A DNA stretch of 64,000 nucleotides from the NCBI RefSeq assembly GCF_009914755.1, contig NC_060928.1. The stretch is one strand, 5' to 3'. This document shows, piece by piece, positions 54,299 to 59,820 of the stretch. Both the position numbers and the translations under genes were made by a program. Under the pieces are notes generated by a model. That model was given only the letters and a program-made list of their open reading frames with translations. It was not told the origin of the DNA and made no database searches. Numbering within the stretch: position 1 is the first letter of the stretch; each line of letters starts with the position of its first letter. The stretch is from the human T2T-CHM13v2.0 reference genome, Homo sapiens.

Positions 54299-54376
54299 AT
54301 GACGATCATGTACAGCTGCATTGCTAATGGCCGAGCGGTCCTAGCGGAGCTGACACTGACTGGAGGTTCTTACCAG
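54299..54376 (+). CDS. VAMP9P: Coding part of exon 1 of the VAMP7-like gene (26 codons, longin N-terminus)
   Basis: ATG at 54299 (context GCTATGA), open to CAG|gtacct donor at 54377, phase 0. The longin-like pattern MxIxYxxIAxGxxVLAE...GGxY is present. Confidence 0.6.
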
Positions 54377-54499
54377 GTACCTCCGGATCCACGCCACCGC
54401 CCCCACGGGTTCCGCCCCTCGAGGGTGGTGCCCCCCGAGCCCGCCCCTAAGGACGCGGCGCTGCGAGGTGGTCCGGAACCTGCTCGGGGGACACAAGCT

Positions 54500-54570
54500 C
54501 CCGCCCCGCGAGAGATCCCGCCCCCACGAGAGACCCCGCCCCCGCAAGAGGCCCCGCCCCCGCGAGAGGC
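54500..54570. repeat. GC-rich minisatellite, about 4 x 18 bp (CCCGCCCCCRCRAGAGRC)
   Basis: Units ccgccccgcgagagat, cccgcccccacgagagac, cccgcccccgcaagaggc, cccgcccccgcgagaggc. Confidence 0.8.
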
Positions 54571-54714
54571 TGGCGTCCCGGCGGCTGCCGCACGTGCGCC
54601 ACCTAGGGGACAGAGCTGGCGCTGCACGTGCTGGGTTTGGTGGCTATTTGAACCCAGGTCCAACTTTGATAGACCCTAAAATTTGTCTTTCTCCTGCGGA
54701 GAAATGACCTGCAG

Positions 54715-56560
54715 TTCAGCACACATTTATTGAACATATCTCTGTCACAAAATCCCAGAGTAAAGAATATCACGGATTCAGCAGTGAACATGAGCCTGGC
54801 ATTGCCCCTTTATATCCAAGGGCTATAGACAATTGTCCTAGAGTGTAAAAAGTATTTCAACGGAGGTAGGTTGCGATTGTTCTTGTAGTTTTCAAGATGG
54901 GCTCTTGGCTTATAAACTTGTAAGAATTAGTCCTAGCCTGGCACAGGAAAGGGGAATGAGAACTCCATGCAGAGAAAAGAGCATGGTGTGTCTGCAGATT
55001 CCCAGGAACCTCAGTGTGGCTGGAACACAAGGATGAGGGTGTAGAGGCTGGAGATAAGGCCAGGAAAGTGGGCAGAAGACAGCAAATGAAGGGTCCTATA
55101 TACAGCTGTTTTCTCATCCCAGAGAACCTGGGGAGCAACTAAGATTTATAAACAGAGGAATAGCAAGATCTGATTTACCTTCTGATAAGTTTGGTCTGGT
55201 TACAATGTGGAAGGTAGATTGGGAGGGTGATATCCATTTAGAATGGATGGGCCTGCACTAAGACAATGATGGTGCAAATGGAAAGAAGGGGCAGATCCTA
55301 AGGAGACTTTCTTTTTTTTTTGAGACGGAGTTTCACTCTTGTTGCTCAGGCTGGAGTGCAATGGCGCAATCTCGGCTCACTGCAACCTCTGCCTCCCAGG
55401 TTCAAGCAATTCTCCTGTCTCAGCCTCCCAAGTAGCTGGGATTACAGGCATGCGCCACCACACCCAGCTAATTTTGTATTTTCAGTAGAGACGGGGTTTC
55501 TCCATGTTGGTCAGCCTGGTCTCGAACTCCTGACCTCAGATGATCTGCCTGCCTCGGCCTCCCAAAGTGCTAGGATTACAGGCACAAGCCACCGAGCCTG
55601 GCCCCTAAGGAGACTCTCTAAACTTCATTCTCAGGAGTTGATAACTGGTTGAATATGTCAGATGCTGGACAAGGTAATGCATAGGATAAGCCTCAGAATT
55701 TTTTCGTAGGTGGCATTGAACTACAAAGAGAACATAGAAAGAGGAGAAAAATGGTGGGAGGGAATGTAGGGGAGAAGAATAGAGTTTGGGACATGCTGAA
55801 TTTTGTTACCTGTTGAAAATGGCCAAATCTATATGTGTATTTATTTTTCCACCTATTTCCAAAGGGTTTTAAGTCAGAAAAATGTCTAGTAGGTAATGAA
55901 TATATTGCTCTAGCATTCAGAGAGTCAAGACTGACCGTTAAAAGGAGTAGAAATGGGTAAGACTGCCCGGGAAATGTATAGAAAGTGAGAAAAGAGGAGG
56001 ACCAAAAGGCAGAACATGGTTTAAGAAGAAAGTAGAGAGATGGGTCACCAAATGTGAGCTGTGGTGTCCTACAAGCCAAAAGAAGAAATTTACAAGAATT
56101 TCTCATATCCCCAGTAAGTTGAGCATGTCCCCAATAAGTTCATGTCTAGTCCAGTCAACACCTTGAGCAAGAACTAAAAGGTGTTCATTAGACTCTACAA
56201 TGGGAAGATGATTGGTGATTGTACTGTAAGCAGTTTGGGAGAAGAGCAGAGGCAGAAGCCCAGTACCTTTACGCCAAATGAGTGAGAGATAGGAAAGTAG
56301 GGAGAATGAGGTTAGACTGTTCCTTCAAAAATTTAGAAAGGGAATGAGATGGAGTGAAAGCTAGATGCAGCATGATCCAGGAAGGCACCTCATTTTTTTA
56401 ATATAAGGAAAACTTTCACATGTAAGTTAAGCTAATGGAAAGAAAAGGTCAAAGATATAAGAGACGAGGGGGCTATTGGTGGAGTAAGGCTTGAAGGGGC
56501 ACAAAAGGATGGAATCCAATTTGGCAGTAGAGATGTGAGCCTCAGATTAGGGGAATACCC
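54715..56560 (-). mobile_element. L2 LINE remnant
   Basis: Reverse L2 3' end cacatttattgaac and purine-rich degenerate L2 body; interrupted by an Alu. Confidence 0.65.
55309..55603 (-). mobile_element. AluSp/Sq-like
   Basis: gagtttcactcttgttgctcagg start; TSD cctaaggagact at 55297-55308 and 55604-55615. Confidence 0.9.
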
Positions 56561-56579
56561 TCTTTCTCTTCAGGAAAGG

Positions 56580-57950: not shown

Positions 57951-59129
57951 AAGAAAGGAGAGAGAAAACTAAAATCTTTCATAAGCCCCAAGTGACCTCT
58001 CTTGGTGAAGCATACAGGAAGGGAAGAAAGTAGAGGTATAAGGCAGTATATAATTGGAGGAGAGCACTGAAGGCCTGGAATGACTGCTGTGCGGAAAGCT
58101 GACTAGGGAGGAGAAAAAGAATAGCAAGGAGCTTCAAGAAATAGTTCAGGTTAAAAGGAAAGAAAAAAGTATCACATCTTCCCTCAATGCCAAGGATATA
58201 AAAAATTTTATATCCATTTGAAAAACATGAGTACCAAAGTTTAATCATGAGATCCAACTAACTGCTATTATAGAATCCTGGCACTGAACGGGATCCTAGA
58301 GATCATCTGTCCAATCTCTTCATTCTTCCCACGAGTAAACAGACCCAGACAAGTCACTAAGTCATGCAACACATTAATTCTAGAAACACAACTAGAACCC
58401 ACTTTGCCATTCATTTTACTGCCTCATATTGCCATTTGTTTTGTTTCAAATTTTGCTAAGATACCAATGTTTACACTATACACTAAAAGAGACACTTGGG
58501 GGAAAATGTGGGAATATGTTCCATTACTAATAATTGAGAGTTTGTGTGTCCCTTTAATTTTTCAAGTTTTTTAGGAAATCCTTTCCTAGAAAATATCACT
58601 GGGACTTTTCAGGCAATACCAAGAGTTTCAGGTTTTACTTTCTACCATTAATAATAACTTTTACCCTTCCATAAATGTTTTTATTTCTTGTTATTTTGTG
58701 AAAATGGAAAAATTAATTGGGATTATAGCCATTCAAGACTTCTTGGGTAACTTTCAGATTTCTTTAACACTTCTAAAGTAAATTAATGGGACTGCATATA
58801 ACTGATTACATTTAAGTTATTCTGGATAGTCATAGTATCTTACAAATTTTTCCCCAAAGAATGAGCCTTATAAGAAACAGGTATAAGAGTTCTTAGCAAT
58901 TGTTTGTTTTTTAGAAAGAGATCAGTGAACAATAGTGAATAAAAATTTTTATCTTAAAAAATAAGGTAAGACTGCTTAGGGTATTCAGAAAATAAAAGAT
59001 GAATATCCTTAACTATTAACATTTTATTTATAGTTTCAGTAGCTAGTGGTTACTGAAAAGATGTTTGATTAGATAGTGCTTTCCAGCCTTGAAACCATGT
59101 ATAAGATATGATTGTAAAAATAAGATTAT

Positions 59130-59180
59130 TGATCCAGATGGCCTGAAGCAACTGCAGTATCACAAAAGAAGTAAAAATGG
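59130..59180 (+). mobile_element. LTR7 (HERV-H LTR)-like fragment fused 5' of the AluY
   Basis: atccagatggcctgaagcaactgcagtatcacaaaagaagtaaaaatgg resembles the LTR7 U3 repeat as recalled. Confidence 0.7.
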
Positions 59181-59478
59181 GGCCGGGTGCAGTGGCTCAC
59201 GCCTGTAATCCTAGCACTTTGGGAGGCCGAGGCGGTCGGATCACGAGGTCAGGAGATCGAGACCATCCTGGCTGACACGATGAAACCCCGTCTCTACTAA
59301 AAATGCAAAAAAATTAGCCGGGCGTGGCGGCGGGCGCCTATAGTCCCAGCTACTCAGGAGGCTGAGGCAGGAGACTGGCGTGAACCCAGGAGGCAGGGCT
59401 TGCAGTGAGCAGAGATCGCGCCACTGCACTCCAGCCTGGGCGACAGAGCGAGACTCCGTTTCAAAAAAAACAAAAAAT
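59181..59478 (+). mobile_element. AluY
   Basis: Y-type positions ggatcacgaggtcaggagatcgagaccatcctggct and ggcgtgaaccc; CpG-rich. Confidence 0.92.
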
Positions 59479-59749
59479 AAAAATAAGATTATGTAGTTCA
59501 ACCTATATTTGCACACATATATGTGTATATTATATGTATATTTATGTGGTTTTAATATTTTTCTTCAGATTCATATGAATATTTCAGGATCACTTGACTG
59601 TTACCATGCATTATGAATCCCCACTCATTAGTTCTCCTAGTGAACTGGTTTTCCTTAATAAACTAATTAGAACATTGATAAATTTAGGAGGAGAATAATG
59701 AAATACACTACAATCTTCTGCAAAGTAAATGCTGACAATTTATTTTTAG

Positions 59750-59820
59750 GAAGCAGTGGCAAAAGTGCTTAGATTAGTGCTTCTTAGAGCTGAACCAAAG
59801 ACCATAATTCAAATGGGAAG
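59750..59820 (+). CDS. VAMP9P: Exon 2 of the VAMP7-like gene (71 nt, EAVAKVLRLVLLRAEPKTIIQMG+2 nt)
   Basis: Branch-like CTGAC at 59732-59736, acceptor tatttttag|G, open in phase 0, donor AG|gtaaag at 59821 (phase 2). Confidence 0.6.

What the first reader, a model, noticed from the sequence alone, without database searches (positions are those of the whole stretch)
54299..59820. Spliced VAMP7-like longin gene (VAMP9-type) with intact promoter, start codon and first two exons
Seen: the 126-aa ORF-track entry is protein-like only for 26 codons, up to a GT donor. A 71-nt exon 5.4 kb downstream has a branch site, acceptor and donor and continues the frame. Known: the joined 49 residues align with the VAMP7/SYBL1 longin N-terminus (about 12 identities by eye, one gap). 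The phase-2 intron after G49 matches, as I recall, the intron inside VAMP7 codon 49, which points to an ancient intron-retaining paralogue and not a retrocopy. Inference: this is the little-studied VAMP9 R-SNARE, a pseudogene in human by my recollection. Nothing in this window disables it, so a transcribed gene or a truncated longin-only product remains possible.
Basis: partly seen in the sequence, partly recalled or inferred. Interest (0 to 1): 0.8.

Follow-up and report, generated by a model that had tools for sequence, protein, structure and literature searches.

The report
Human VAMP9 pseudogene, first two exons
This is the promoter and first two coding exons of VAMP9P, the already named human remnant of a VAMP7-like vesicle-fusion gene that other mammals still have intact; it is correctly read but ordinary.

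Summary
ATG 54299, a 26-codon exon ending at a GT donor (54376|54377), and a 71-nt exon (59750-59820) with AG and GT are all there. Both match mammalian VAMP9 proteins: 25 of 26 and 20 of 23 residues against a dolphin orthologue. Genome-wide, all six ancestral exons lie in order on the same strand.

The joined human reading is 645 nt with no frameshift. All five introns keep AG/GT. There are two premature stops, both outside the window: TAA at codon 115 (window 66739-66741) and TAG at codon 185 (109176-109178).

The family is a VAMP7-like longin SNARE by Pfam, PDB sequence match and fold. The phase-2 intron after Gly49 falls in the same alignment column and phase as the VAMP7 intron in codon 49.

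The locus is already annotated as VAMP9P and was named by HGNC from rodent Vamp9.

Small additions:
- Exon 2 is absent from the RefSeq models in the hub table.
- Exons 5 and 6 lie beyond the annotated span.

A 114-residue longin-only product is not excluded but is unlikely. The annotated splicing gives ORFs of only 34 or 55 codons.

The parts
54050..54650 (.). CpG-island promoter region spanning the VAMP9P start sites (RefSeq 54217 and 54241, + strand) and the start of lncRNA LOC105377308 (- strand)
   Evidence: 601 bp, GC 0.687, 59 CpG, observed/expected 0.85. GC peaks at 0.65-0.79 in 54100-54699. All 4 CCCCGCCC matches in the 64-kb window lie at 54112-54559, against 0.22 expected. Start sites come from the hub table.
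54173..54177 (+). CCAAT motif 40 and 64 nt upstream of the two annotated start sites
   Evidence: Read directly from the sequence. A cheetah protein model that reads through its upstream region aligns here at 49% identity, E 5.6e-9, which points to DNA-level conservation. Function is inferred, not tested.
54217..54298 (+). 5' untranslated part of exon 1
   Evidence: Annotated exon start from the hub table. No ATG in 54217-54298.
54299..54376 (+). VAMP9P coding exon 1: start codon and codons 1-26, corresponding to strands beta1-beta2 of the longin domain
   Evidence: 25/26 identical to dolphin VAMP9, E 8.6e-11. Mean pairwise identity among 31 mammals is 91%, the best conserved exon. Strands at residues 3-10 and 13-19 in the model of the orthologue.
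54377..59749 (+). Intron 1 (phase 0), an intron that VAMP7 lacks
   Evidence: In VAMP7 codons 1-48 lie in one exon of 146 nt.
54374..54527 (-). First exon of antisense lncRNA LOC105377308; its donor overlaps the VAMP9P exon-1 donor
   Evidence: Hub table. The minus strand reads CTG|GTAAGA with the exon ending at 54374, so the two first exons overlap by 3 nt, 54374-54376.
54500..54568 (.). 18-bp tandem repeat, 3.9 copies, carrying GC boxes, in intron 1
   Evidence: Tandem Repeats Finder score 103.
54759..54865 (+). Alternative exon used by RefSeq model XR_007074761.1 in place of ancestral exon 2; not homologous to VAMP9 protein
   Evidence: Hub table. AG at 54757-54758 and GT at 54866-54867. 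Joined to exon 1 it gives a stop after 55 codons. No tblastn match to VAMP9 proteins here.
59750..59820 (+). Ancestral VAMP9 coding exon 2: codons 27-49 plus 2 nt of codon 50, corresponding to helix alpha1 and strand beta3. Not in the RefSeq transcripts listed by the hub.
   Evidence: 20/23 identical to dolphin VAMP9, E 4.4e-7. Contiguous with exons 1 and 3 in the 32 full-length orthologues aligned. Helix 26-39 and strand 43-48 in the model.
59821..64000 (+). Start of intron 2 (phase 2), which runs past the window end. The rest of the gene lies outside the window, in window coordinates: exon 3 64937-65033 (97 nt, codons 50-82, no stop); exon 4 66643-66744 (102 nt, codons 83-116, TAA at codon 115 = 66739-66741); exon 5 89580-89738 (159 nt, codons 117-169, SNARE motif, no stop, donor GTTAAG); exon 6 109131-109268 (138 nt with the natural TGA, membrane anchor, TAG at codon 185 = 109176-109178). 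Exons 5 and 6 lie beyond the RefSeq span, which ends at 66756.
   Evidence: No VAMP9 match in 59821-64000. Exons 3-6 were found in the window's own genome and read at the DNA level. At codon 115, 24 of 32 aligned orthologues have Tyr and the others Cys or His. A snub-nosed monkey protein (P0138) has Trp at codon 185. Pfam Longin matches exon 3 alone at 19.7 bits, below the cut-off.

Best explanation
The interval holds the 5' end of VAMP9P. This is the human unprocessed, single-copy (unitary) pseudogene of VAMP9, a six-exon paralogue of VAMP7 built as longin domain, SNARE motif and membrane anchor.

Shown:
- A CpG-island promoter.
- An intact start codon and exon 1.
- An intact ancestral exon 2, 5.4 kb downstream.
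- Four further exons in order over about 55 kb, with no frameshift and every AG/GT kept.
- Two nonsense codons, at 115 and 185, both outside the window, which break the reading.

Inferred:
- The promoter still fires and is shared head to head with an antisense lncRNA.
- The transcripts are non-coding. The annotated splicing leaves out exon 2, so only 34 or 55 codons stay open. A full-length message would stop at codon 115, before the SNARE motif and the anchor, and would probably be removed by nonsense-mediated decay.
For: Exons and homology.
- Searches give the exons and splice sites.
- One search found 16 mammalian proteins sharing exon 1.
- One search gives the tblastn E-values for exons 1 and 2.
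- six collinear exon matches on the same chromosome and strand. Every other hit in the genome is 39% identical or less and covers the SNARE motif only, so there is one copy.
- exon lengths 78, 71, 97, 102, 159 and 138 nt, 645 nt in all. Stops at codon 115 (TAA), codon 185 (TAG) and the natural TGA at 215.
- the read-through translation is 84.9% identical to dolphin (180/212), 84.4% to colugo, 65.9% to mouse and 54.7% to a turtle homologue.

Family.
- Longin 28.5 bits against a cut-off of 26.2, and Synaptobrevin 65.7 bits, in the orthologue.
- VAMP7 is the best solved relative.
- longin fold, with VAMP7 chains as the top eight matches.
- shared intron positions.
- an independent VAMP7-like profile scores human residues 1-114 at 82.3 bits.

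Annotation and literature.
- The hub table lists VAMP9P as a transcribed pseudogene.
- Passage read in PMC6324057: named by orthology to protein-coding rodent Vamp9.
- GWAS table read in PMC13491712: cattle VAMP9 lies beside HNRNPD, as here.

Primates.
- None of the named rows among the 120 listed homologues of 117-375 aa is a primate, although colugo and tree shrew are present.
- A marmoset read-through model has Leu in place of the initiator Met.
Against: - The human reading is hardly decayed. It has the shortest root-to-tip path of the 26 placental sequences (0.802 against 0.833-1.175).
- Its distances to five outgroups are no larger than those of intact orthologues.
- It departs at only 3 of 42 sites that are invariant in the other 31 mammals.
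- This fits recent inactivation or slow primate rates, but it also leaves room for some retained coding use.
- Transcription and the absence of exon 2 from transcripts rest on the hub's predicted models. I saw no RNA data.
- One paper reports differential expression of 'VAMP9' in human A549 cells (passage read, PMC11411994). That shows transcription only.
- Only one human haplotype was examined.
Confidence: 0.9

Rival explanations
1. The locus still encodes a 114-residue longin-only protein. An exon 1-2-3-4 transcript would be translated from ATG 54299 to the TAA at codon 115. The product would act without SNARE motif or membrane anchor, like the non-SNARE isoforms described for VAMP7.
For: - The start codon, the 5' UTR without an upstream ATG, exons 1-4 and all their splice dinucleotides are intact.
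- The stop falls inside the last longin helix. That helix spans 102-121 in the orthologue model, so all five strands, alpha1, alpha2 and about two thirds of alpha3 would remain.
- The annotated gene ends 12 nt past exon 4 (hub table). A message ending there would carry the stop in its last exon and escape nonsense-mediated decay. This is inference.
- The human reading shows no accelerated change.
- Predicted longin-only models exist in other mammals, for example rows of 161 aa carrying Longin only.
Against: - The RefSeq transcripts in the hub table do not contain exon 2. Without it the ORF ends after 34 codons, and with the annotated alternative exon after 55.
- The locus is curated as a pseudogene by HGNC and RefSeq (hub).
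- The marmoset has lost the initiator codon.
- No primate protein covering exons 1-4 was found in either length class.
- No proteomic evidence was seen in the 13 papers that mention VAMP9 (I read passages of six).
Confidence: 0.05
2. What is kept here is the promoter, not the gene. The CpG island is a bidirectional or regulatory element serving the antisense lncRNA or neighbouring genes, and VAMP9P transcripts are a by-product.
For: - The lncRNA LOC105377308 starts inside the same island, and its first exon overlaps VAMP9P exon 1 by 3 nt (hub table).
- RefSeq lists silencer elements at 54069-54228 and 54269-54658 (hub table).
- The upstream region aligns with a carnivore's.
Against: - This does not conflict with the pseudogene reading. 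It only adds a reason for the island's survival.
- It cannot explain why exon 2, 5.4 kb away, and four more exons remain open. That fits recent loss better.
- No functional data were available to me.
Confidence: 0.15
3. It is a chance ORF plus a chance exon, or a processed retrocopy of VAMP7.
For: Each exon alone gives no Pfam or PDB hit. A 24-codon open stretch is unremarkable in itself.
Against: - Significant matches to VAMP9 orthologues for all six exons, in order.
- Five introns are present.
- Only 44 of 167 aligned residues are identical to human VAMP7.
- The next best ORF in the window scores 5.9 bits against the family profile.
Confidence: 0.01

Closest known systems
VAMP9 of other mammals (rodent Vamp9, cattle and horse VAMP9, many 'VAMP7-like' or 'VAMP714-like' RefSeq models)
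   Same: - Same six coding exons and the same length, 214 codons.
- 65-85% identity.
- Same neighbourhood beside HNRNPD in cattle (hub table).
- Same N-terminal exon-1 peptide, 25/26 identical to dolphin.
   Different: - The human copy carries TAA at codon 115 and TAG at codon 185.
- Its annotated transcripts skip exon 2.
- It has three private changes at otherwise invariant sites: Y53C, L64V and V83I.
VAMP7 (SYBL1, TI-VAMP), the longin R-SNARE on Xq28/PAR2
   Same: - Same architecture of longin domain, SNARE motif and C-terminal anchor.
- VAMP7 is the best solved relative by sequence and by fold.
- Introns at codon 49/50 (phase 2) and at 114/116 (phase 0) fall in the same alignment columns. 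The one at 167/169 does too if the alignment is extended without gaps.
   Different: - About 26% identity (44/167).
- VAMP9 has extra introns after codons 26 and 82. VAMP7 has extra ones after codons 68 and 144.
- The position that aligns with the central arginine of VAMP2 (residue number recalled) is Arg in only 16 of 32 VAMP9 orthologues and Lys in human.
Non-SNARE, longin-only splice isoforms of VAMP7
   Same: A reading stopped at codon 115 would give a protein consisting of the longin domain alone.
   Different: - Here the truncation comes from a nonsense codon, not from regulated splicing, and no product is known.
- I saw the VAMP7 isoform literature only as a search listing (PMC10743575) and otherwise from recall.
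Human unitary pseudogenes in general (genes lost in the human or primate lineage but working in other mammals)
   Same: Unprocessed, single copy, introns kept, few disabling changes, intact orthologues elsewhere, still transcribed.
   Different: None of kind. It is a lightly damaged example: two stops and no frameshift in 645 nt.

Membership tests
Longin domain (Pfam PF13774) | Significant match to the family profile | tested here: met
   - Orthologue P0018: 28.5 bits against a cut-off of 26.2, E 1.4e-6.
- Human exon 3 alone reaches only 19.7 bits in the genome scan.
- The human joined 1-114 reading scores 82.3 bits (E 2.9e-24) against my own profile of 101 VAMP7-like proteins.
- The joined human peptide could not be given to the Pfam tool.
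Longin domain (Pfam PF13774) | Fold of two strands, a helix, three strands and two helices | tested here: met
   - AlphaFold2 model of the dolphin orthologue: strands 3-10, 13-19, 43-48, 51-58 and 61-67; helices 26-39, 74-94 and 102-121. pLDDT is about 85-92 over residues 1-90.
- The Foldseek top eight are VAMP7 longin structures, best E 4.8e-8.
- The test was made on the orthologue, not on the human reading.
Synaptobrevin-type R-SNARE (Pfam PF00957) | SNARE motif matching the family profile, followed by a membrane anchor | tested here: met
   - Orthologue: 65.7 bits, residues 128-207.
- Human exons 5 and 6 are 78% and 84% identical to it, but they lie behind the stop at codon 115 and are cut by the stop at 185.
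Synaptobrevin-type R-SNARE (Pfam PF00957) | Arginine at the central (zero) layer | tested here: not met
   - The column aligned with the Arg of the VAMP2 'LERDQKL' stretch holds Lys in human (residue 152).
- Among 32 orthologues it holds R in 16, S in 8, K in 7 and N in 1.
- That this VAMP2 residue is the zero layer is recalled, not tested.
VAMP9 orthologue group | Best match over the whole length and the same exon set as VAMP9 of other mammals; single locus in the genome | tested here: met
   Six collinear exon matches; no other locus above 39% identity. 84.9% identity to dolphin. Groups with placentals in the tree.
VAMP9 orthologue group | Conserved neighbourhood | tested here: met
   HNRNPD lies about 58 kb past the window end (hub table). 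Cattle VAMP9 is listed within 0.5 Mb of HNRNPD, HNRNPDL, ENOPH1 and RASGEF1B (table read in PMC13491712). No other species was checked.
Unitary (unprocessed) pseudogene | Introns retained; disabling changes in the ancestral frame; no working copy in the same genome; working orthologues elsewhere | tested here: met
   - Five introns and two nonsense codons.
- Single locus.
- Intact 212-215-aa models in at least 32 species.
- Protein-level evidence in rat is known to me only through the HGNC paper's citation of Chocu et al. 2014, which I could not open.
Processed pseudogene or retrocopy of VAMP7 | No introns and high identity to the parent mRNA | tested here: not met
   Five introns. 26% identity to VAMP7.

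The most novel reading that the evidence does not exclude
Human VAMP9P is not dead. A minor exon 1-2-3-4 transcript, perhaps in testis where rodent Vamp9 protein was reportedly found, would be translated into a 114-residue soluble longin domain with a regulatory role of its own. The nonsense codon at 115 would then have turned a membrane SNARE into a longin-only protein instead of destroying the gene.
Probability: 0.05. Interest if true: 0.5.

Novelty: already known. Interest (0 to 1): 0.15.

Why it matters
It matters little beyond good bookkeeping.

The details added here may help annotators:
- Where the ancestral exon 2 lies.
- That the SNARE and anchor exons sit 23 and 42 kb beyond the annotated end.
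- That exactly two nonsense codons and no frameshift break the reading.
- That one of those codons is Trp in an Old World monkey.

They also mark VAMP9P as a lightly damaged gene loss that could be dated across primates.

The VAMP9 family itself is barely studied. Its central SNARE residue varies among mammals, while its first exon is 91% conserved.

Tried and rejected
**Searches that gave nothing**
- Pfam and PDB sequence searches with exon 1 (26 aa) and exon 2 (23 aa) alone: no hits, because the queries are too short.
I then used the 201-codon stop-to-stop frame around exon 1 with the region option.
- A search for further VAMP9 exons inside the window after 59820: none. The best other tblastn hit has E 0.30 and lies at 42135-42461. 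Exon 3 lies 937 nt past the window end.
- Rfam over 53000-64000: no family reached its gathering score.

**Tests of decay in the human lineage**
- Signs of accelerated decay were looked for in three ways. None was found, so they cannot date the loss.
- Human against the snub-nosed monkey over exons 5-6: 9 of 98 positions differ. Intact gene pairs differ as much in this fast-evolving part (Mus-Rattus 24/97, Enhydra-Mustela 9/98), so this says nothing about constraint.

**Literature**
- The paper that described rodent Vamp9 (Chocu et al. 2014, PubMed 25210130) is not held.
- One 'VAMP9' text match (PMC2171417) is a primer name.
- Reviews that list VAMP9 with VAMP7, VAMP8 and STX17 in autophagosome-lysosome fusion give no data in the passage I read (PMC6894516).

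**Not finished or not possible**
- The last VAMP7 exons were not found in the 70 kb fetched. The comparison of the fifth intron therefore rests on an ungapped extension.
- dN/dS could not be computed, because no orthologous DNA was available.
They are now described inside the intron-2 part.
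Full report
**1. The observation**

- An ATG at 54299 opens 26 codons that end at 54376, followed by GT (CAG|GTACCT).
- The 126-codon ORF that contains them continues into proline- and arginine-rich CpG-island sequence.
- At 59750-59820 lies a 71-nt stretch with an AG acceptor behind a T-rich tract and a CTGAC branch-like motif 15 nt upstream. 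Its donor is AAG|GTAAAG. It is open in the frame that continues exon 1: 23 codons plus two bases.

Alone, the two pieces are too short for Pfam or PDB sequence searches, which gave nothing.

**2. Identity**

A search with the frame around exon 1 found 16 mammalian proteins. Several carry Pfam Longin and Synaptobrevin. A 214-residue dolphin protein (P0018) served as the reference.

In the window it matches two places:
- exon 1 at 25 of 26 residues (E 8.6e-11);
- exon 2 at 20 of 23 residues (E 4.4e-7).

The next hit has E 0.30.

The window's genome could be searched. All six exons of the reference lie on the same chromosome and strand, in order, over about 55 kb. Every other hit in the genome is 39% identical or less and covers only the SNARE motif.

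In window coordinates the coding parts are:

| Exon | Window coordinates | Note |
|---|---|---|
| 1 | 54299-54376 | in window |
| 2 | 59750-59820 | in window |
| 3 | 64937-65033 | outside |
| 4 | 66643-66744 | outside |
| 5 | 89580-89738 | outside |
| 6 | 109131-109268 | outside; includes the natural stop |

All five introns keep AG and GT.

**3. What is broken**

Joined in a script, the exons give 645 nt in one frame. There are two premature stops:
- TAA at codon 115 (window 66739-66741, two codons before the exon-4 donor);
- TAG at codon 185 (window 109176-109178).

There is no frameshift.

The read-through translation is 84.9% identical to dolphin, 84.4% to colugo, 65.9% to mouse and 54.7% to a turtle homologue.

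**4. Family**

- The orthologue has Longin (28.5 bits, cut-off 26.2) and Synaptobrevin (65.7 bits).
- Its best solved relative by sequence is VAMP7 (4b93_A, E 3.2e-17 over residues 1-182).
- Its AlphaFold2 model shows the longin arrangement of strands and helices. The top eight Foldseek matches in the PDB are VAMP7 chains, followed by Sec22b and Ykt6.
- A profile built only from 101 VAMP7-like representatives, none more than 39% identical to VAMP9, scores the human pieces as follows:

| Query | Bits |
|---|---|
| Joined residues 1-49 | 27.7 |
| Joined residues 1-114 | 82.3 |
| All six exons | 189.3 |
| Best unrelated ORF of 2135 in the window | 5.9 |

**5. The intron claim**

I read human VAMP7 from chrX of the same genome.
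- Its first coding exon holds codons 1-48 and two bases of codon 49.
- In the alignment this phase-2 intron falls in the same column as the VAMP9P intron inside codon 50.
- The phase-0 intron after VAMP9P codon 116 also coincides with the one after VAMP7 codon 114.
- The last pair (169 and 167) coincides only if the truncated VAMP7 end is extended without gaps.
- VAMP9P has introns after codons 26 and 82 that VAMP7 lacks. VAMP7 has introns after codons 68 and 144 that VAMP9P lacks.

The gene is therefore an old intron-bearing paralogue and not a retrocopy.

**6. What is already known**

- The hub table lists the locus as VAMP9P, a transcribed pseudogene spanning 54217-66756.
[quoted passage not shown] It cites Chocu et al. 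2014, a paper I could not open.
- Cattle VAMP9 lies near HNRNPD, as the human locus does.
- The full-text search for 'VAMP9' found 13 papers. I read passages of six, and none deals with the human lesions or the gene's evolution.

**7. Transcripts**

The RefSeq models in the hub table use exon 1 and then either an unrelated exon at 54759-54865 or no further exon inside the window. Neither contains 59750-59820.
- Exon 1 joined to the alternative exon stays open for 55 codons.
- Exon 1 joined directly to exon 3 stays open for 34 codons.
- The annotated gene ends 12 nt after exon 4. Exons 5 and 6 lie 23 and 42 kb further on and are not in the table.

I could not look at RNA data.

**8. Promoter**

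- Positions 54050-54650 form a CpG island: GC 0.687 and CpG observed/expected 0.85.
- All four CCCCGCCC motifs of the window lie here, against 0.22 expected.
- A CCAAT motif lies at 54173-54177.
- The 5' UTR has no ATG.
- The antisense lncRNA starts inside the island. Its first-exon donor lies 3 nt from the VAMP9P exon-1 donor on the other strand.

**9. Primates and timing**

- None of the named rows among the 120 listed homologues of 117-375 residues is a primate, while colugo and tree shrew are present.
- Among shorter proteins, a snub-nosed monkey entry (P0138, 98 residues) equals exons 5-6 and has Trp at codon 185. The TAG is therefore absent from that Old World monkey.
- A marmoset model that reads through exon 1 has Leu for the initiator Met and four more changes in 26 residues.
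- The human reading shows no excess change. It has the shortest root-to-tip path among the placentals and 3 departures at 42 otherwise invariant sites. Its distances to five outgroups are like or below those of intact orthologues.

This fits a recent loss or slow primate rates, and I cannot tell which.

**10. Verdict**

It describes a locus that is already named and annotated.

The longin-only idea is not excluded. The stop at 115 would leave all five strands, alpha1, alpha2 and about two thirds of the last helix. The annotated splicing and the primate data argue against it.

Noticed in passing
window 54368-54382: The exon-1 donors of VAMP9P (+ strand, 54376|54377) and of the antisense lncRNA LOC105377308 (- strand, 54374|54373, CTG|GTAAGA) sit in a near-palindromic stretch. 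The two first exons overlap by just 3 nt.
   Followed up: partly
window 54500-54568: An 18-bp tandem repeat with 3.9 copies, each carrying a GC-box-like motif, lies in intron 1 inside the CpG island.
   Followed up: no
L001 (window 89580-89738) and L002 (window 109131-109268): The SNARE-motif and membrane-anchor exons of VAMP9P lie 23 and 42 kb beyond the annotated gene end (66756) and are not in the hub's RefSeq table. Exon 5 is fully open.
   Followed up: yes
VAMP9 orthologues P0018-P0118 (alignment): The column aligned with the central arginine of VAMP2 holds R in 16, S in 8, K in 7 and N in 1 of 32 VAMP9 orthologues. The SNARE exon is the least conserved (58% mean pairwise identity) and exon 1 the most (91%). 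VAMP9 may not act as a standard R-SNARE.
   Followed up: partly
rows (e.g. P0078, P0102, P0105 of 161 aa; P0047, P0059, P0076 of 180 aa): Many mammals have predicted isoforms of 161 aa with Longin only and of 180 aa with Synaptobrevin only. These lengths equal 214 minus the 53 codons of exon 5 and minus the 34 codons of exon 4. They may be in-frame exon-skipping forms. This rests on arithmetic only and was not checked by alignment.
   Followed up: no
window 54308-54310 (codon 4): Human has Met at codon 4 where 31 of the 32 aligned orthologues have Thr and dolphin has Ala, which gives a second in-frame ATG. The marmoset read-through model shares this Met.
   Followed up: no
P0005 (marmoset): The marmoset model has Leu in place of the initiator Met and 4 further changes in the 26 residues of exon 1. 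That is more decay than in human.
   Followed up: partly
literature (PMC6894516; also listed PMC11104508, PMC8727921): Reviews name 'VAMP9' beside VAMP7, VAMP8 and STX17 as an autophagosome-lysosome fusion SNARE. The passage I read in PMC6894516 gives no data, and the other two I saw only in the search listing.
   Followed up: no
window 61354-62016 and 63663-63863: Long ORFs here translate into Alu-like peptide strings. They are repeat-derived and not part of the gene.
   Followed up: no
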